Shown here: positions 6,887 through 57,052 of the stretch, piece after piece
Numbering within the stretch: the stretch's first letter is position 1
How the letters are laid out: every line of letters begins with the position of its first letter
The notes under the pieces: generated by a model
Database searches by the model: none
What the model saw: only the letters and a program-made list of their open reading frames with translations
What the model was told of the DNA's origin: nothing
Sequence record: PZ386975.1
Source: a phage
Direction: 5' to 3' (one strand)
DNA: 64,000 nucleotides
Program-made: the position numbers and the translations under genes

Positions 6887-7309
6887 ATGCAGAAAATGTT
6901 TGTTCACCCAGACATAGCTGACTTTGTTAGAGCTTTGCAGAAGTTGGAAGAACTTGACATTGCTGCTCAACGGGAATATGCTCACCATCACAGGAGAATG
7001 GTTGATATACAACATGAAATAGAGTTGTCTGAAGACTATGAAGATGACTTAAAATGCTCTGTATTTGAGCATATGAAAGATGTTGCTACAGCGAGACGTA
7101 AAGCTAAAGACACAGTTGCTTTACTAGATTCTCTTAAAAAGAGGTTGCAAAGTGGTACAGACCTGTGTAATCTAGCATCACTGATTAACGATGTTGAAAC
7201 TTCTTGGGATAGGCACTATTATCCACGTTCTGAAAAGACACTTGACTTTTCTTCATCAGAAAACTTAAAATGTTCTAGAAAGAAGCTTAACCAACTGAGA
7301 GAGAAATAA
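6887..7309 (+). CDS. hypothetical protein
   Basis: First ORF of plus block, preceded by AT-rich promoter region. Confidence 0.4.
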   Translation: MQKMFVHPDIADFVRALQKLEELDIAAQREYAHHHRRMVDIQHEIELSEDYEDDLKCSVFEHMKDVATARRKAKDTVALLDSLKKRLQSGTDLCNLASLINDVETSWDRHYYPRSEKTLDFSSSENLKCSRKKLNQLREK

Positions 7310-53018: not shown

Positions 53019-53390
53019 ATGAAAAACAGAACAAACAAAGGCCAGTTTAAAAAAGGCCAGTCTGGAAACCCATCTGGAAGACCAAAAGGCTCTCGTAACA
53101 AAAGCTCACTCGTAAAAGCTCAACTGACCATTGATAATTCTGCTGAGTTTGCTGCAAAGCTGTTTGAGGCGATTGTTACAAGGGATGCTGCTAAGCTTGC
53201 AGAGTTCGGGTTAAACACAGACGATGTAACCATCAAGAGTATGATTGAGGTCGGTAAAACTATCATGACTCACTCAGCAGGTGAGATGAAAGCAATTGCA
53301 GCAGACACTAAGAAGACTCCTGATAATGGTGGTCAAACCCAGACAGATAACAAACCAACGTTCTCTGCTGTAGCGACTCTCAAAAAATAA
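53019..53390 (+). CDS. hypothetical protein with GNPSGRPKG motif
   Basis: N-terminal basic motif; function unknown. Confidence 0.35.
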   Translation: MKNRTNKGQFKKGQSGNPSGRPKGSRNKSSLVKAQLTIDNSAEFAAKLFEAIVTRDAAKLAEFGLNTDDVTIKSMIEVGKTIMTHSAGEMKAIAADTKKTPDNGGQTQTDNKPTFSAVATLKK

Positions 53391-53471
53391 TTTTAAAAGG
53401 TGTTGACAGACTCTACAAAGTTGCTCTAAAGTCTGTCACATCAAACAACAAATGAGAGAAGAGAGTAAAAT

Positions 53472-54887
53472 ATGAGCGAATTATTCAAACATGCGCACCT
53501 TCATGCAGGTCGAACTGAAAATGGTGCTGTAAACCATACTTCATCAATGTCTGCTCTTGTAGACTTTTACAAAGCTGCTGGTTCTAGCCGTAGCAATGTA
53601 GAAATCTTACCAGACTTGTTCTACAAAGCTTTGCATGAGGATGTTGATGTTGCAGTTCGTATTTTACTGCATATGCGAGATGTACGAGAAGGTATGGGTG
53701 AGCGTAAAGCTTTCCGAACTGTTTTACTTCAAGCGATTGAAGATAAGATTTTAGAGCCTACACAGGTTCTTCGCATTATGGATAAGATTGCAGAACTTGG
53801 TCGTTTTGATGACTTCAAAATCTTCGTAGGTACTCGTTTTGAGACAGATGCCTTCAAACATTTAGAAGCAGCATTACTAGACCCTGCAACAGCAGGTTTA
53901 GCAGCTAAGTGGTTGCCACGAGTAAAACCACGCCACAAACATTTTGTAAAACGTTTCTGTAAGTTTGCAAACTTAAGCGAGAAAGAGTACCGCACACTGT
54001 TATCTGCACTGTCTGATACGGTTGAGCAAAAAATCTCTGCTAATGAGTTTGGTAAGATTGACTACAGCAAGATTCCTTCACTCGCTGCTGCACGTTACCA
54101 AAAACTCTTTAACCGTAAAGATGGAGAACGTTACAAAGCTTACATCGAATCACTCTCAAAGGGTGAGGCTAAGATTAACGCTGGTGCTGTTTACCCATAC
54201 GATGTGATTAAGTCTATCAAGCATGGTAATGCAGATGTTGCCAATGAGCAGTGGAAAGCACTACCAAACTGGATGGCAGAAGGTGAGAACATTCTGTGTA
54301 TGACCGATGTTTCAAGCTCAATGTCTTGGGTGAATCTTGGTTCAATCACTGCCCTTGATATTGGTGTATCACTTGCCTTGTATGTAGCAGAACGCAATAC
54401 TGGTTGTTTTAAGAATGAGTTAATGGTTTACTCAACAAACCCTCACTTCATCGAACTGAGTGGTGATTTACGAAACCGTCATCGTCAGGTGATGCGTCAT
54501 GTTGAATATGGCTCAACTAACTTACAAGCAGCTTTTGACCGTATTCTTGAGATAGGTAAAAGAAACAACTTGACTCAGAAAGATATGCCAAGTAAGCTTA
54601 TCATCTTCTCCGATATGGAGTTCAATCAGGTTGATGGTGCTAACGGTCGTACAAACTTTGAAGCAATTCAGAGTAAGTACAAAAAAGCTGGATATGAGAT
54701 GCCACAACTGGTATTCTGGTACTTAGCAAACCGTAATGGCACTTGCGAAGTATCTGTTAAGGATAACGGTGTAGCAATGGTATCTGGTTTCTCTCCAGCC
54801 ACTTTAAAAGCTCTGCTTGGTGGTGAGAAGTTTGACCCAATCAGCGTAATGCTCAAAGCAGTAATGATTGACCGTTATATCTGGTAA
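53472..54887 (+). CDS. Ro60/Rsr-like protein (TROVE-like N-terminal region plus vWA domain with MIDAS motif)
   Basis: MTDVSSSMSWVNLGSI (MIDAS DxSxS), GSTN and IIFSDMEFN blocks resemble Ro60 vWA domain as recalled (AVDVSASM...LGSI, GGTD, IVFTDNETF); about 280 aa helical N-terminal region. Confidence 0.5.
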   Translation: MSELFKHAHLHAGRTENGAVNHTSSMSALVDFYKAAGSSRSNVEILPDLFYKALHEDVDVAVRILLHMRDVREGMGERKAFRTVLLQAIEDKILEPTQVLRIMDKIAELGRFDDFKIFVGTRFETDAFKHLEAALLDPATAGLAAKWLPRVKPRHKHFVKRFCKFANLSEKEYRTLLSALSDTVEQKISANEFGKIDYSKIPSLAAARYQKLFNRKDGERYKAYIESLSKGEAKINAGAVYPYDVIKSIKHGNADVANEQWKALPNWMAEGENILCMTDVSSSMSWVNLGSITALDIGVSLALYVAERNTGCFKNELMVYSTNPHFIELSGDLRNRHRQVMRHVEYGSTNLQAAFDRILEIGKRNNLTQKDMPSKLIIFSDMEFNQVDGANGRTNFEAIQSKYKKAGYEMPQLVFWYLANRNGTCEVSVKDNGVAMVSGFSPATLKALLGGEKFDPISVMLKAVMIDRYIW

Positions 54888-54905
54888 AAAGTTTTAAAAA
54901 GGGTA

Positions 54906-54934
54906 TTGACAATGTGTTTGATACCCTTTAATAT
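54906..54934 (+). promoter_or_regulatory. sigma70-like promoter upstream of tRNA cluster
   Basis: TTGACA, 17 nt spacer, TAATAT. Confidence 0.5.
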
Positions 54935-55052
54935 GTTCTACATAGAAACGAAATGAGAGCTTTTCTAAGATACTGAAAAATATTTTAAAAAAGTTCTTGA
55001 CAACCACTAAAAAATAATGTTAAAGTGGTTACATAGAGTTTGAAAAGTTTAT

Positions 55053-55129
55053 CTCTGTTTAGCTCAGCTTGGTAGAGCGTTCCGTTTGGGGCGGTAAGGC
55101 CGGAGGTTCAAGTCCTCCAACAGAGACCA
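55053..55129 (+). tRNA. tRNA-Pro (TGG), tentative
   Basis: 7 bp acceptor ctctgtt/aacagag, T-arm ggaggttcaagtcctcc, encoded CCA. Confidence 0.6.
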
Positions 55130-55146
55130 AATTTAAAGGGGTTACT

Positions 55147-55503
55147 ATGAGATTTTTAAAAGAATGTCCAGTTCATGGTTTAACTGAACATAGCATTCAT
55201 AAGAATGGTAACGCCGGTAATAGAGTAAATTGTCTAAAATGTTGTGCATTAAGGACAAAACTTAGAGAGGATGCCAATAGGGAGAAAGCATACAAGTTTT
55301 ATGGCGATAGTTGCAAAATTTGTGGCTATAATAAATGTAAAAATGCTTTAGAATGGCATCACCTTAACCCAAACGAAAAAGAGAATACACCATCAAAAAT
55401 TATGGGTGCATCTTGGGAAAAGGTTAAAAAAGAACTTGATAAATGTGTTTTGCTCTGTGCTAATTGCCACAGAGAGGTTCATAGTGGAATTACAACGGTT
55501 TAA
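55147..55503 (+). CDS. HNH endonuclease inside tRNA cluster
   Basis: CKICG...EWHHLNP...CANCHREVH; start moved to MRFLKE because annotated start overlaps a tRNA. Confidence 0.55.
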   Translation: MRFLKECPVHGLTEHSIHKNGNAGNRVNCLKCCALRTKLREDANREKAYKFYGDSCKICGYNKCKNALEWHHLNPNEKENTPSKIMGASWEKVKKELDKCVLLCANCHREVHSGITTV

Positions 55504-55504
55504 T

Positions 55505-55579
55505 GTCGTAGAAGGCAAATGGTTAGCCACCTGACCTTCAATCAGTTGCTCGCAGGTTCGAATCCTGTCTACGACACCA
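55505..55579 (+). tRNA. tRNA, anticodon possibly TTC (Glu)
   Basis: Acceptor gtcgtag/ctacgac, T-arm gcaggttcgaatcctgt, CCA. Confidence 0.5.
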
Positions 55580-55586
55580 GTTTTGA

Positions 55587-55659
55587 CAGAAGACCAATTA
55601 CAGCAAACTTAATCTTATTCATCTGAAGGTAAATCGGACAAAGAAGAGATTTGGTCTGG
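55587..55659 (+). ncRNA. conserved stem element A (CAGAAGACCA ... TTGGTCTGG)
   Basis: Member of a 4-copy family with covarying closing stem and conserved TACAGCAA. Confidence 0.35.
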
Positions 55660-55670
55660 TCATTAAGAAT

Positions 55671-55747
55671 TGCGGGTATAGAGAAAGGGCGTCTCACATG
55701 TCTCATTAGCATGGTATCGGCAGGTTCGACTCCTGCACCCGCCTCCA
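55671..55747 (+). tRNA. tRNA-Met-like (CAT), non-canonical 1:72 pair
   Basis: Anticodon loop ctcatta, T-arm gcaggttcgactcctgc, CCA; acceptor pairing imperfect. Confidence 0.4.
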
Positions 55748-55753
55748 ATTTTG

Positions 55754-55813
55754 CAGAAGACCGTATTCAGCAACAAACTACTTTTTGCGGATAAAAGAAA
55801 AAACACGGTCTGG
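55754..55813 (+). ncRNA. conserved stem element B (CAGAAGACCG ... CGGTCTGG)
   Basis: Covarying G-C in place of A-T relative to element A. Confidence 0.35.
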
Positions 55814-55824
55814 CAATGTATTAA

Positions 55825-55901
55825 GGTTAGGAAGCACATAAGGTATGTGCGGTCGCCTGTTAAGCGAATGGCACAGGGTTCGAATCCCTGACTAACCGCC
55901 A
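55825..55901 (+). tRNA. tRNA-Asn (GTT)
   Basis: Acceptor ggttagg/actaacc, anticodon loop ctgttaa, T-arm cagggttcgaatccctg, CCA. Confidence 0.6.
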
Positions 55902-55970
55902 AATTTAGGAGAGAAGCGATTGCTCACCGATTTGTAAGGTGCAAGTCCTTAGCCTGAATAGAAATTAAAT

Positions 55971-56058
55971 GTGTCGTTATCCCGTAGATGGTAGCGGTGG
56001 GGACTGTAAATCCCTTGTCATTGAGACTCGGTAGGTTCGACTCCTACACGGCACACCA
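55971..56058 (+). tRNA. tRNA-Tyr (GTA), long variable arm
   Basis: Acceptor gtgtcgt/acggcac, anticodon loop ctgtaaa, T-arm gtaggttcgactcctac, CCA. Confidence 0.6.
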
Positions 56059-56063
56059 ATAAA

Positions 56064-56141
56064 GGTTATGTAGTTTAATTTGGTTAAAATACTCCCCTGT
56101 CACGGGAGATGATGAGGGTTCAAATCCCTTCGTAACCGCCA
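56064..56141 (+). tRNA. tRNA-Asp (GTC)
   Basis: Acceptor ggttatg/cgtaacc, anticodon stem-loop ctccc ctgtcac gggag, CCA. Confidence 0.65.
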
Positions 56142-56202
56142 ATTTTGAGAGGGCTATTTAGCCCCTCCCTTAAAGGGTTCTTACGAGTATCCTTTAAAGG
56201 AG

Positions 56203-56278
56203 CAGAAGACCAAATACAGCAAGAACGTATGAAAATTTCAAGCCAATTTAATTTTGAAAAATTTAAAACTTGGTCTGG
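56203..56278 (+). ncRNA. conserved stem element C (CAGAAGACCA ... TTGGTCTGG)
   Basis: Same family as A, B, D. Confidence 0.35.
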
Positions 56279-56291
56279 CTCAACAAATTTA

Positions 56292-56422
56292 CAGAAGACC
56301 GTTTACAGCAAAACTTAAACAATCTATTTCTCGGTAAAGAAAAGGCGAAGGTTCGATTCCTTCACTCGGCAGATGTCGAGTTGGTGTAATGGTAGCACTT
56401 AAGATGATAAACAACGGTCTGG
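56292..56422 (+). ncRNA. candidate Y-RNA-like ncRNA (element D) with permuted tRNA-like module
   Basis: Closing stem CAGAAGACCG/CGGTCTGG; internal T-arm gaaggttcgattccttc, acceptor-like hairpin actcggc-agat-gtcgagt, then D-arm-like ggtgtaatggtagcac; no conventional 5' acceptor partner. Confidence 0.4.
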
Positions 56423-56424
56423 TA

Positions 56425-56566
56425 ATTATCTTTGTAGATAAGTTATTAAGCTTACCTGTGAGTATGCGACCACAAAGGGTGAAAGGGTAAATTCTAGATT
56501 TAAACCCAAAAAGGCACATCGCTACAGACCTTAAGCAAGTCTGGGTAGCTTATCTACAAAGATAAT
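56425..56566 (+). repeat. 18 bp perfect inverted repeat enclosing about 106 nt
   Basis: attatctttgtagataag at 56425-56442 and its exact reverse complement at 56549-56566. Confidence 0.6.
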
Positions 56567-56571
56567 TTAAT

Positions 56572-56730: not shown

Positions 56731-56805
56731 TGTGGGTTAGCATAAATGGTAATGCAAACGGCTGATAACCGTTAGAAGAGGGTTCGATACCCTCACCTAC
56801 AACCA
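56731..56805 (+). tRNA. tRNA-Ile (GAT)
   Basis: Anticodon stem-loop aacgg ctgataa ccgtt, T-arm gagggttcgataccctc, CCA. Confidence 0.65.
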
Positions 56806-56820
56806 ATTTCAATAAAGTTG

Positions 56821-56849
56821 TTGACATTGAGATGTGACTACTTTATAGT
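56821..56849 (+). promoter_or_regulatory. sigma70-like promoter inside tRNA cluster
   Basis: TTGACA, 17 nt spacer, TATAGT. Confidence 0.55.
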
Positions 56850-57052
56850 AACCTTAGTTTTCGTTGCGTAGCGTCTATTTTGCAAATTTAAAATAAATGC
56901 AAACGACAATGTTTTTCTGGCAGTAGCTTGATAGGCTAAACACCAGTGAGGTCTTCCAATCCCTCATCAAAGAATTTGGCGTACTAGCCCACGGTATGAT
57001 TAATAAAGTGGGCATCTTTAAGGGCTTTCTAAGAGAGTCTTTAAAGATTAAT

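What the first reader, a model, noticed from the sequence alone, without database searches (positions are those of the whole stretch)
53472..56566. Ro60/Rsr-like protein next to the tRNA cluster, with a family of covarying stem elements, one resembling a Y RNA
The 471 aa protein at 53472-54887 has a C-terminal vWA domain with a MIDAS motif whose conserved blocks resemble the Ro60 vWA domain, preceded by a helical region of TROVE-like length. Within 1.5 kb downstream, between tRNAs, four elements (55587-55659, 55754-55813, 56203-56278, 56292-56422) share CAGAAGACC(R)..TACAGCAA at the 5' end and (Y)GGTCTGG at the 3' end. The R/Y position covaries (A with T in two copies, G with C in two), which points to a conserved closing helix. 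Element D also contains a T-arm, an acceptor-like hairpin closed by a tetraloop, and a D-arm-like segment in permuted order, which is the architecture reported for bacterial YrlA-type Y RNAs. A Ro60 orthologue with cognate Y-like RNAs inside a phage tRNA island could be an RNA quality-control or tRNA-related module.
Basis: partly seen in the sequence, partly recalled or inferred. Interest (0 to 1): 0.8.

Follow-up and report, generated by a model that had tools for sequence, protein, structure and literature searches.

The report
Phage Ro-like protein with cognate Y-like RNAs
A Felix-O1-type phage encodes a ring-shaped Ro60-like RNA-binding protein and, scattered among its tRNA genes just downstream, four or five small structured RNAs (one a tRNA mimic) that carry a conserved tag found next to this protein family in very different phages, so they are most likely its RNA partners, in a protein family already linked to escape from a bacterial defence.

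Summary
The 471-aa protein (53472-54887) has no Pfam TROVE hit. It belongs to DUF2828+DUF7788 (PHROG 850). Its AlphaFold model matches Ro60/Rsr chains over the full length (Foldseek E about 1e-7), and the vWA MIDAS residues are invariant.

Elements A-D (55584-55662, 55752-55815, 56200-56281, 56290-56424) share one closing module: an outer helix, a 3-nt 5' bulge, a 7-bp covarying helix, 3 nt, CAGCAA, then the 3' strand of the helix, an unpaired G and the outer helix. Element D encloses a permuted tRNA-like core (V, T, closed acceptor, D), which is the YrlA layout. Rfam YrlA and Y_RNA do not hit it.

The same module sits beside DUF2828 genes, always on the gene strand, in phages of Yersinia, Mycobacterium, Campylobacter, Bacillus, Staphylococcus, Listeria and Enterococcus, and in many metagenomic viral contigs. 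A covariance model built only from those phages retrieves A, B and C as the only significant hits in the window. A profile of their long forms retrieves D at E=9e-13.

Published work had noted the Ro60 fold of the presumed Bas63 orthologue gp130 (a counter of the Ppl defence) and only speculated about Y RNAs.

Verdict: a distinct Y-RNA-like class paired with a divergent Ro family. It is a new variant of a known kind. Binding and function are untested.

The parts
53403..53432 (+). Sigma-70-like promoter (TTGACA-18-TAAAGT) upstream of the Ro-like gene
   Evidence: consensus match only
53472..54887 (+). Ro60-fold protein: helical-repeat N-terminal part plus C-terminal vWA domain with MIDAS. Pfam DUF2828 + DUF7788, PHROG 850
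54906..55026 (+). Two sigma-70-like promoters (54906-54934, 54997-55026) heading the tRNA/Y-like RNA array
   Evidence: consensus match only
55584..55662 (+). Element A, short Y-like RNA: UGAC / AGA / AGACCAA / UUA / CAGCAA ... UUGGUCU / G / GUCA
   Evidence: R1 E=1.5e-4
55752..55815 (+). Element B, short Y-like RNA: UGC / AGA / AGACCGU / AUU / CAGCAA ... ACGGUCU / G / GCA
   Evidence: R1 E=1.8e-5
56200..56281 (+). Element C, short Y-like RNA: GAGC / AGA / AGACCAA / AUA / CAGCAA ... UUGGUCU / G / GCUC
   Evidence: R1 E=2.3e-4
56290..56424 (+). Element D, long Y-like RNA: the same closing module enclosing a V hairpin and a permuted tRNA-like core
   Evidence: nhmmer E=9.3e-13 with a profile from other phages
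56347..56398 (+). tRNA-like core of D: T-arm 56347-56363, closed acceptor stem 56364-56381, U8-like UG, D-arm 56384-56398
56424..56567 (+). Element E, a possible fifth related RNA: 24-bp closing stem, multibranch interior, and a tip hairpin CAGAC-CUUAAGCAA-GUCUG-G that resembles the module
   Evidence: z=-5.7; 12 pairs with compensatory change in relatives. Relation to the family is inferred from resemblance only

Best explanation
The locus encodes a phage Ro-type ribonucleoprotein. The DUF2828/DUF7788 protein is a Ro60-fold ring with a vWA/MIDAS domain. Elements A-D, and perhaps E, are its cognate Y-like RNAs. The following steps are inferred. The RNAs are transcribed with the tRNAs from the promoters at 54906 and 54997. 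They are released when the flanking tRNAs are processed, and their paired 5' and 3' ends protect them. The shared closing module (unpaired A, 7-bp helix, N3, CAGCAA ... helix, unpaired G) is the protein-recognition element. The variable interiors are effector-binding parts. The tRNA-like core of D mimics a tRNA elbow and recruits a tRNA-binding or RNA-degrading host enzyme, which is PNPase in the characterised Ro systems. The complex would then act on damaged or structured RNA, tRNA above all, during infection, and so help the phage resist host defence. What is shown here: the fold, the RNA structures, their covariation, and their strict linkage and co-orientation with the gene family. What is inferred: binding, processing, the effector and the biological role.
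For: Protein. The AF2 model has pLDDT 88. The ten best Foldseek PDB matches are all Ro60/Rsr/TROVE chains, aligned over about 540 columns with E between 7.5e-8 and 3.2e-6. MIDAS is invariant. Homologues in mycobacteriophages are annotated 'Ro-like RNA binding protein'.

RNA structure. All four elements fold to the same architecture. In the enterobacterial-phage group the outer helix, which was not used for detection, is 99% paired only in the register with a 1-nt 3' bulge, against 22-51% in other registers. In 41 family members the inner helix is 98.3% paired, all 7 pairs show double changes, and slid controls give 32-42%. The T, acceptor and D helices of 14 long elements covary: 24 of 29 pairs have compensatory change.

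Family membership by independent models. CM R1 was built without any Ounavirinae sequence. It finds B, A and C as the only significant hits in the window. A profile of 10 foreign long elements finds D over its full length at E=9.3e-13.

Linkage. 41 of 41 hits and 37 of 37 hits in 65 further viral loci lie on the gene strand, mostly within 500 nt of the gene. Of CAGCA[ATC] anchors on the gene strand, 23.6% have the helix, against 4-11% in controls.

Bridge to YrlA. The LeBron long element scores 39.8 bits (E=1.6e-7) on Rfam YrlA, directly downstream of its DUF2828 gene.

Literature. Bas63 gp130 has a Ro60-like fold and counters the Ppl defence, and its authors only guessed that some 'tRNAs' are Y RNAs (PMC11482910). 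That gp130 is the orthologue of the window protein is an inference. Bas63 is a Felixounavirus, and the paper places g130 directly upstream of the tRNA genes. I did not retrieve or compare the Bas63 sequence. In Listeria phage CKA15 the Rsr-like protein is found in virions, and the three most transcribed regions lie within 2 kb upstream of it on the same strand (PMC12282133). Thermus phage Ro60 binds two phage Y-like RNAs and host PNPase (PMC12135203).
Against: There is no Pfam TROVE hit, and the sequence profile reaches Ro60 only at E=0.24. Rfam YrlA and Y_RNA do not hit A-D even at E<=10. The canonical Ro-binding motif GNCGAA(N)G is absent. No expression or binding data exist for this phage. 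The Vibrio and Aeromonas T4-like phages that carry the gene showed no element within 4 kb. The outer helix is not conserved outside the enterobacterial-phage group. The structural alignments were fitted to the proposed structure, so their pairing percentages are inflated.
Confidence: 0.72

Rival explanations
1. The elements are cis-acting parts of the tRNA/Ro-gene transcripts rather than free partner RNAs. They would be processing or stability stems, or binding sites through which the protein regulates its own mRNA or tRNA-precursor maturation.
For: In many loci the elements lie directly in the 5' or 3' flank of the gene on the same strand. In the window they sit between tRNAs in one predicted transcription unit. 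In Vibrio phage ValKK3 a 5' half-module lies 43 nt before the start codon.
Against: The paired 5' and 3' ends, the multiple paralogous copies per genome and the tRNA-like core match the trans-acting Y RNA design. Bacterial Y RNAs are also co-transcribed with rsr. In the window two strong promoters and a tRNA separate the gene from the elements. In the Listeria phage the upstream regions are by far the most abundant phage RNAs (PMC12282133), although I did not map those regions onto the elements.
Confidence: 0.12
2. The RNAs are autonomous tRNA mimics or decoys. They would soak up or mislead a host tRNA-targeting nuclease or tRNA-modifying enzyme. Their linkage to the DUF2828 protein would reflect a shared pathway, not direct binding.
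For: D has an intact tRNA elbow: G53:C61 is invariant, and the UUCGAUU T-loop, the GG in the D-loop and U8 are present. The elements are embedded in a 24-tRNA array.
Against: Only one of the four or five elements per genome has the tRNA-like core. All of them share the closing module with CAGCAA, which has no tRNA counterpart and is the feature conserved next to the gene across phages of different host phyla.
Confidence: 0.1
3. The elements are decayed tRNA genes, small mobile DNA repeats, or homing-endonuclease or recombination sites, with no RNA-level function.
For: An HNH endonuclease gene (55147-55503) is inserted in the same array and is absent from most relatives. The elements look like imperfect inverted repeats at the DNA level.
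Against: Compensatory changes preserve pairing in dozens of different helix sequences, including G-U pairs, which are meaningful only in RNA. All hits are strand-specific (78 of 78). The permuted tRNA order cannot arise by simple decay. The elements are conserved beside the same gene in phages of Actinobacteria, Firmicutes and Proteobacteria.
Confidence: 0.03

Closest known systems
Bacterial Rsr (Ro60) with YrlA/YrlB or Yrn1/Yrn2 Y RNAs (Salmonella rsr-yrlBA-rtcBA; Deinococcus RYPER complex)
   Same: A Ro-fold ring plus vWA/MIDAS protein. Several small RNAs are encoded within 4 kb on the same strand. One RNA has a tRNA-like domain in the order V-T-closed acceptor-D, and the others are shorter. 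The 5' and 3' ends pair into a bulged stem. In the Listeria phage locus RtcB lies nearby.
   Different: The protein has no Pfam TROVE hit and belongs to DUF2828/DUF7788. The RNAs lack GNCGAA(N)G and carry helix-N3-CAGCAA instead. Rfam YrlA does not score D. The RNAs are interspersed in a phage tRNA array.
Thermus phage phiLo phiRo60 with Yrl1/Yrl2 (PMC12135203)
   Same: A phage-encoded Ro-type protein with two adjacent Y-like RNAs. Binding and recruitment of host PNPase were shown there.
   Different: phiRo60 is a bona fide TROVE protein and its RNAs carry the CGAA motif. Its structure (9kop) matches the model here only at the fold level, TM about 0.54.
Bas63 gp130 (PhageMaP preprint, PMC11482910)
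   Same: Presumably the orthologous Felixounavirus gene, described as lying directly upstream of the tRNA array. This rests on the paper's description, and no sequence comparison was made here. The authors noted structural similarity to Ro60 and reported a knockout phenotype as a counter of the Ppl defence.
   Different: That work did not identify the RNAs. It suggested that some annotated tRNA genes might be Y RNAs. The RNAs found here are not annotated tRNAs but lie in the spacers between them.
Listeria phage CKA15 Rsr-like CKA15_055 and its highly transcribed upstream regions (PMC12282133)
   Same: A homologous protein (the cka16 and LMTA-148 homologues are 29% identical). Three promoter-driven noncoding regions lie within 2 kb upstream. 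In LMTA-148 three tandem CAGCAA elements lie behind a TTGACA promoter at L009 3615-3888.
   Different: The authors proposed Y RNAs without defining any structure or motif. I could not map their coordinates exactly onto the elements.

Membership tests
Ro60/Rsr (TROVE + vWA) proteins | Pfam TROVE domain (PF05731) detectable in the sequence | tested here: not met
   Pfam scan at E<=1 lists only DUF7788, DUF2828 and weak VWA_2. The same holds for six homologues.
Ro60/Rsr (TROVE + vWA) proteins | Fold: alpha-helical repeat domain followed by a vWA domain, superposable on Ro60 | tested here: met
   The ten best Foldseek PDB matches are Ro60/Rsr/TROVE chains, full length, E 7.5e-8 to 3.2e-6, TM 0.50-0.65. 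Model pLDDT is 88. Ring closure was not measured.
Ro60/Rsr (TROVE + vWA) proteins | MIDAS motif in the vWA domain | tested here: met
   D279, S281, S283, T349 and D381 are invariant in 44 homologues.
Ro60/Rsr (TROVE + vWA) proteins | Significant sequence-profile similarity to solved Ro60 proteins | tested here: inconclusive
   The profile of A1 against PDB sequences puts Ro60 among the top five, but at E=0.24-2.3.
Ro60/Rsr (TROVE + vWA) proteins | Binds Y RNA on the outer surface and misfolded RNA in the central hole | not testable with these tools
   Needs biochemistry or structure determination.
DUF2828/DUF7788 phage 'RNA-binding protein' (PHROG 850) | Matches to PF11443 and PF25043 above the gathering score, and a full-length PHROG 850 match | tested here: met
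   DUF2828 104 bits, DUF7788 149 bits. PHROG 850 E=2e-183 over residues 1-471.
YrlA (Rfam RF02553) / Y_RNA (RF00019) | Covariance-model score at or above the gathering threshold | tested here: not met
   No YrlA or Y_RNA match on A-D at E<=10. The LeBron homologue scores 39.8 bits against a gathering score of 69.
YrlA (Rfam RF02553) / Y_RNA (RF00019) | Encoded within 4 kb of the Ro gene on the same strand (criterion of Chen et al. 2014) | tested here: met
   A-D start 700-1400 nt downstream of the gene, on the + strand. 78 of 78 family hits lie on the gene strand.
YrlA (Rfam RF02553) / Y_RNA (RF00019) | tRNA-like domain with V, T, closed acceptor and D arms in that order | tested here: met
   Element D and 13 homologues all parse this way, with covarying helices.
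YrlA (Rfam RF02553) / Y_RNA (RF00019) | 5' motif GNCGAAN0-1G (the proposed Rsr-binding site) | tested here: not met
   By direct reading the 5' ends are (N)CAGAAGACC, with AGAA where CGAA is expected. The conserved motif is instead CAGCAA, 3 nt after the helix.
YrlA (Rfam RF02553) / Y_RNA (RF00019) | Stem formed by the 5' and 3' ends, with a bulge or internal loop | tested here: met
   Outer helix, 3-nt 5' bulge, 7-bp helix and 1-nt 3' bulge in all four elements.
CAGCAA closing-module RNAs (family defined here) | Significant match to a covariance model or profile built only from other phages | tested here: met
   R1: B 39.0 bits, A 34.6 bits, C 33.6 bits; the next hit has E=0.51. The long-form profile hits D at 44.1 bits, E=9.3e-13.

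The most novel reading that the evidence does not exclude
DUF2828-type Ro proteins and their CAGCAA-tagged Y-like RNAs form a widespread phage counter-defence ribonucleoprotein, possibly delivered in the virion in some phages. The tRNA-mimic RNA would steer a host RNA-degrading or tRNA-handling enzyme, or a defence nuclease such as Ppl, so that the phage's own tRNA supply and translation survive host attack. The CAGCAA module would be a new Ro-recognition code, distinct from the GNCGAA/GGUCCGA code of all Y RNAs known so far.
Probability: 0.3. Interest if true: 0.85.

Novelty: new variant of a known kind. Interest (0 to 1): 0.66.

Why it matters
Ro60-Y RNA particles are known from animals, bacteria and a few phages, but their role in phage infection is unclear. 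Two recent studies, on Bas63 gp130 and on Listeria phage CKA15, found a Ro-like phage protein with a phenotype or with striking expression nearby. Both could only guess at its RNA partners.

This work defines those candidate RNAs precisely. It gives their coordinates, their secondary structure, a conserved recognition-like module, and short and tRNA-like classes. It also shows that they travel with the protein family across phages of at least four host phyla.

That makes the system directly testable by pull-downs, module mutants and RNA deletions on Ppl+ hosts. It supplies a seed for a new RNA family that current Rfam models miss. It also suggests that spacers in phage tRNA arrays are not junk but encode regulatory RNAs.

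Tried and rejected
Searches that found nothing significant:
- Pfam TROVE and NCBIfam on the protein: no hit.
- phmmer of the protein against PDB sequences: nothing. The profile version reached Ro60 only at E=0.24.
- Rfam at E<=10 on the region and on D alone: only tRNA fragments and noise.
- Rfam at the gathering threshold on ten homologous loci: tRNAs only.

Methods that failed:
- MAFFT plus RNAalifold on unparsed long elements recovered only the T-arm, because the variable loops misaligned. I replaced it with a segment parser and N-padded sequences.
- MAFFT of all 23 short elements misaligned several 3' ends. I used a subset of 15 for the model.

Loci without elements:
- The Vibrio (L003) and Aeromonas (L010) T4-like phage loci gave no element within 4 kb. 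Their RNAs, if any, may lie elsewhere in these 220-250 kb genomes. This was not pursued.

Literature and records I could not obtain:
- The supplementary phage list of Chen et al. 2014 is not held, so I cannot say whether cluster-L mycobacteriophage RNAs were already catalogued there.
- The Sim et al. 2020 review is not held.
- I did not find the CKA15 genome record. OR125585 turned out to be cka14. The published highly transcribed coordinates therefore could not be mapped exactly onto the Listeria elements.
- I did not retrieve the Bas63 genome record, so the orthology of gp130 with the window protein rests on the published description.

Readings considered and rejected:
- Intrinsic terminators: no U-tracts follow the elements.
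- Type III antitoxin repeats: the elements are not tandem identical units.
- Pseudo-tRNAs: the order of the arms is permuted.


Full report
IDENTITY OF THE WINDOW

The region is about 96% identical to Felixounavirus genomes (Salmonella phage Meda, Escherichia phage nataliec and more than 200 others). ORF 53472-54887 (+, 471 aa) is followed by an array of 24 tRNA genes on the same strand. A further tRNA at 55505-55576 is seen only by Rfam.

THE PROTEIN

Pfam gives DUF2828 (1e-29) and DUF7788 (2e-43), plus a sub-threshold VWA_2 match, and no TROVE hit. NCBIfam and a PDB sequence search give nothing. PHROGs places it in phrog_850, 'RNA-binding protein'. RefSeq uses the same name for homologues, and actinobacteriophage annotators call them 'Ro-like RNA binding protein'.

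In an alignment of 44 homologues (40-89% identity) the MIDAS residues D279, S281, S283, T349 and D381 are invariant. An AlphaFold2 model built on that alignment has mean pLDDT 88 and pTM 0.88. It shows about 17 helices followed by an alpha/beta domain.

The ten best Foldseek matches in the PDB are all Ro60 proteins: Xenopus Ro60 (2i91, 1yvp, 1yvr), human Ro60 (9nfa, 9nep, 9nf8), Deinococcus Rsr (2nvo) and the Thermus phage TROVE protein (9kop). They align over about 540 columns with E from 7.5e-8 to 3.2e-6 and TM 0.50-0.65. Isolated vWA domains follow four orders of magnitude behind. A sequence profile of the family reaches Ro60 only at E=0.24.

So the protein has the Ro60 fold. By sequence it is a separate family and not a TROVE-family member.

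THE RNA ELEMENTS IN THE WINDOW

AGAAGACC occurs four times on the + strand within 55588-56300. GGTCTGG occurs four times on the + strand in the whole window, each one paired with one of them.

All four elements have the same minimum-free-energy architecture:
- an outer helix of 3-4 bp whose sequence differs in each copy (UGAC/GUCA, UGC/GCA, GAGC/GCUC, UAC/GUA);
- an unpaired AGA on the 5' side;
- a 7-8 bp helix (AGACCAA/UUGGUCU or AGACCGU/ACGGUCU);
- a single unpaired G on the 3' side.

Three nucleotides after the 5' strand of the helix every copy has CAGCAA.

Element D (56290-56424) encloses, in this order, a V-like hairpin, a T-arm, a 7-bp acceptor-like stem closed by AGAU, U-G, and a D-arm. 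A purpose-written scan for 'T-arm, then closed 7-bp stem, then D-arm' over both strands of the window found D and only two false positives at tRNA-tRNA junctions.

Rfam has no Y_RNA or YrlA match on any of the elements, even at E<=10 on a 381-nt slice.

THE SAME RNAS NEXT TO THE SAME GENE IN OTHER PHAGES

tblastn finds the protein in 710 phage records. They include phages of Mycobacterium, Listeria, Staphylococcus, Campylobacter, Enterococcus, Bacillus, Vibrio and Aeromonas. I fetched 20 loci.

Yersinia phage P778 (protein 53% identical) has three elements between its tRNAs. Their geometry is the same but the helices differ: GGACUGU/ACAGUCC, GGAUUCU/UGAAUCC and GGACUCU/UGAGUCC. Each is followed by UUA or AUU and then CAGCAA.

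Mycobacteriophages LeBron and Snenia carry three elements (short, long tRNA-like, short) in the 360-nt gap directly after the gene, ending in a terminator. Campylobacter phage Los1 has two directly before the gene. Staphylococcus phage SEP9 has three directly after it. Listeria phage LMTA-148 has three directly before it. Bacillus phage PJN02 and Enterococcus phage VRE9_1 have theirs among the tRNAs flanking it.

The LeBron long element scores 39.8 bits (E=1.6e-7 in that slice) on Rfam YrlA. That is below the gathering score of 69 but ties the family to YrlA. The homologous proteins in these phages are all DUF2828+DUF7788, and none shows TROVE.

TESTS DESIGNED TO AVOID CIRCULARITY

(i) Anchor test. 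Anchoring only on CAGCA[ATC], 68 of 288 gene-strand anchors (23.6%) have a near-perfect complement of the 7-mer at offset -10 within 200 nt downstream. Other offsets and the opposite strand give 4-11%.

(ii) Outer helix. The outer helix played no part in detection. In the enterobacterial-phage group it is paired in 99% of cells in the register with a 1-nt 3' bulge, and in 22-51% in other registers. Outside that group it is not conserved.

(iii) Covariance model from other phages. Model R1 was built from 15 short elements of other phages, with no Ounavirinae sequence. In the window, on both strands, it finds B, A and C with exact ends as the only significant hits (E=1.8e-5, 1.5e-4, 2.3e-4). The next hit has E=0.51.

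(iv) Profile of long forms. An nhmmer profile of 10 long elements from other phages finds D over its full length at E=9.3e-13. The next hits are half-length matches across tRNA junctions.

(v) Strand. All 41 R1 hits in the 21 sources lie on the gene strand. In 65 further IMG/VR loci whose proteins are only 39-47% identical, all 37 hits (E<=0.1) lie on the gene strand. They fall in 31 loci, mostly within 500 nt of the gene.

COVARIATION

In the 41 aligned family members the 7-bp helix is paired in 98.3% of cells. All seven pairs show changes on both sides, in 106 cells. No shuffle out of 500 reaches the observed covariation score, and slid controls pair at 32-42%. Among 55 curated elements there are 38 different helix sequences.

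For 14 long elements, 24 of 29 pairs across the closing, T, acceptor and D helices show compensatory change. G53:C61 is invariant, as in tRNA.

Caveat: these alignments were fitted to the structure, by the model or by my parser. The pairing percentages are therefore upper bounds. The independent tests above carry the argument.

WHAT IT MOST LIKELY IS AND HOW IT MOST LIKELY WORKS

Shown here:
- a Ro60-fold protein;
- a family of small structured RNAs with a conserved module and variable interiors;
- one tRNA-mimicking member per genome;
- strict linkage and co-orientation of RNA and gene across very distant phages.

Inferred:
- The RNAs are the protein's Y-RNA-type partners.
- The module (unpaired A, helix, N3, CAGCAA ... 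helix, unpaired G) is the recognition element. It stands in for the GNCGAA/GGUCCGA bulged helix of canonical Y RNAs.
- In the window the RNAs are transcribed from the consensus promoters at 54906 and 54997 and are freed by processing of the flanking tRNAs.
- The tRNA-like core of D recruits a tRNA-binding or exonucleolytic effector. The analogy is with Rsr-Y RNA-PNPase in Deinococcus and Salmonella (Chen et al. 2014, PMC4201824) and with Thermus phage phiRo60-Yrl-PNPase (PMC12135203).

The biological role is probably counter-defence or RNA quality control during infection. The presumed Bas63 orthologue gp130 is needed for normal plaques on hosts carrying the Ppl defence (PMC11482910). That orthology rests on the paper's description of g130 as lying directly upstream of the tRNA genes of a Felixounavirus. 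I did not compare the sequences. The Listeria phage homologue is present in virions, and the three most highly transcribed regions of that phage lie within 2 kb upstream on the same strand (PMC12282133). In LMTA-148 one TTGACA promoter sits directly in front of the three tandem elements. I could not map the published coordinates exactly onto them.

COMPARISON WITH WHAT IS KNOWN, AND NOVELTY

Ro60 with Y RNAs is an established kind of system, including in phages. The Ro-like fold of this particular protein has been noticed before. In the literature I could search, two things are not described. One is the RNA family itself: its structure, its CAGCAA module, its short and tRNA-like classes, and its position in tRNA-array spacers. 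The other is its general association with DUF2828/DUF7788 proteins. Rfam 15 does not capture it.

The protein fails the TROVE sequence test, and the RNAs fail the YrlA model and the GNCGAA test. They should therefore not be filed as Rsr and YrlA members, although they very probably work like them. I rate this a new variant of a known kind.

A FIFTH ELEMENT

Immediately after D, 56424-56567 folds into a 24-bp stem with a branched interior (z=-5.7). The structure is conserved in four relatives, with 12 compensatory pairs. Its tip hairpin, CAGAC-CUUAAGCAA-GUCUG-G, looks like a collapsed version of the module. Whether it belongs to the same system is open.

Noticed in passing
window 56424-56567: A 144-nt RNA-like structure lies directly after element D. 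It has a 22-24 bp closing stem and a branched interior, with z=-5.7. It is conserved in SUSP2, Moogle, Sf14 and a metagenomic relative, with 12 compensatory pairs. Its tip hairpin CAGAC-CUUAAGCAA-GUCUG-G resembles the CAGCAA module.
   Followed up: partly
window 55147-55503: An HNH endonuclease ORF (118 aa) is inserted between tRNA-Pro and the next tRNA. Most relatives lack it: their matches cover 86% of the query in two pieces. This looks like a homing-endonuclease insertion in the tRNA array.
   Followed up: partly
window 55505-55576: A tRNA is found by Rfam (55.4 bits) but missed by ARAGORN. The relatives SUSP2, Moogle and Sf14 annotate a tRNA-Glu immediately after tRNA-Pro, the position this tRNA would occupy but for the HNH insertion. 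It starts 2 nt after the HNH stop codon.
   Followed up: partly
window 57624-57713 and 57355-57470: Two more long inverted repeats lie in the tRNA array. One is a hairpin with 26-nt arms just before tRNA-Leu(tag). The other is a pair of 14-nt arms that bracket tRNA-Ser(tga) exactly. They may be processing stems or further ncRNAs.
   Followed up: no
window 56748-56931: A sub-threshold Rfam match to permuted tmRNA (32.5 bits against a gathering score of 47, E=0.001) spans the 3' part of tRNA-Ile and the promoter-bearing spacer at 56821. ARAGORN reports no tmRNA.
   Followed up: no
window 53019-53390; also L014, L015, L017, L020: A 123-aa DUF5681 protein with a basic N-terminus (GNPSGRPKGSRNK) is encoded directly upstream of the Ro-like gene, on the same strand, in the window and in four relatives whose Ro-like proteins are 47-63% identical to it. 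It is a conserved neighbour of unknown role.
   Followed up: no
L009 (Listeria phage LMTA-148) 1962-2960: Two consensus TTGACA/TATAxT promoters head noncoding stretches of about 300 and 550 nt upstream of the Ro-like gene. These stretches contain no CAGCAA element. They probably correspond to the most highly transcribed regions reported for phage CKA15, and may be other large ncRNAs.
   Followed up: partly
L009 7604-8020 and 6810-7592; L016 and L018 upstream genes: RtcB-type RNA ligase genes lie 1.3-2.6 kb downstream of the Ro-like gene in the Listeria phage, which echoes the bacterial rsr-yrlBA-rtcBA operon. In two metagenomic phages NAPRTase and PRPP-synthetase genes (NAD salvage) sit directly upstream.
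   Followed up: no
L003 (Vibrio phage ValKK3) 3958-3990: A 5' half-module (AAAGACAUU-UUA-CAGCAA) lies 43 nt before the start codon of the Ro-like gene. It has no convincing 3' partner outside the coding sequence. It may be an autoregulatory site in phages that lack nearby free elements.
   Followed up: no
L015 5607-5715 and L001 about 7008-7150: These sequences look like tRNAs, with an acceptor stem and a T-arm, but carry an insertion of about 45 nt in the middle. They may be intron-containing or otherwise unusual tRNAs in the arrays of P778-like phages.
   Followed up: no
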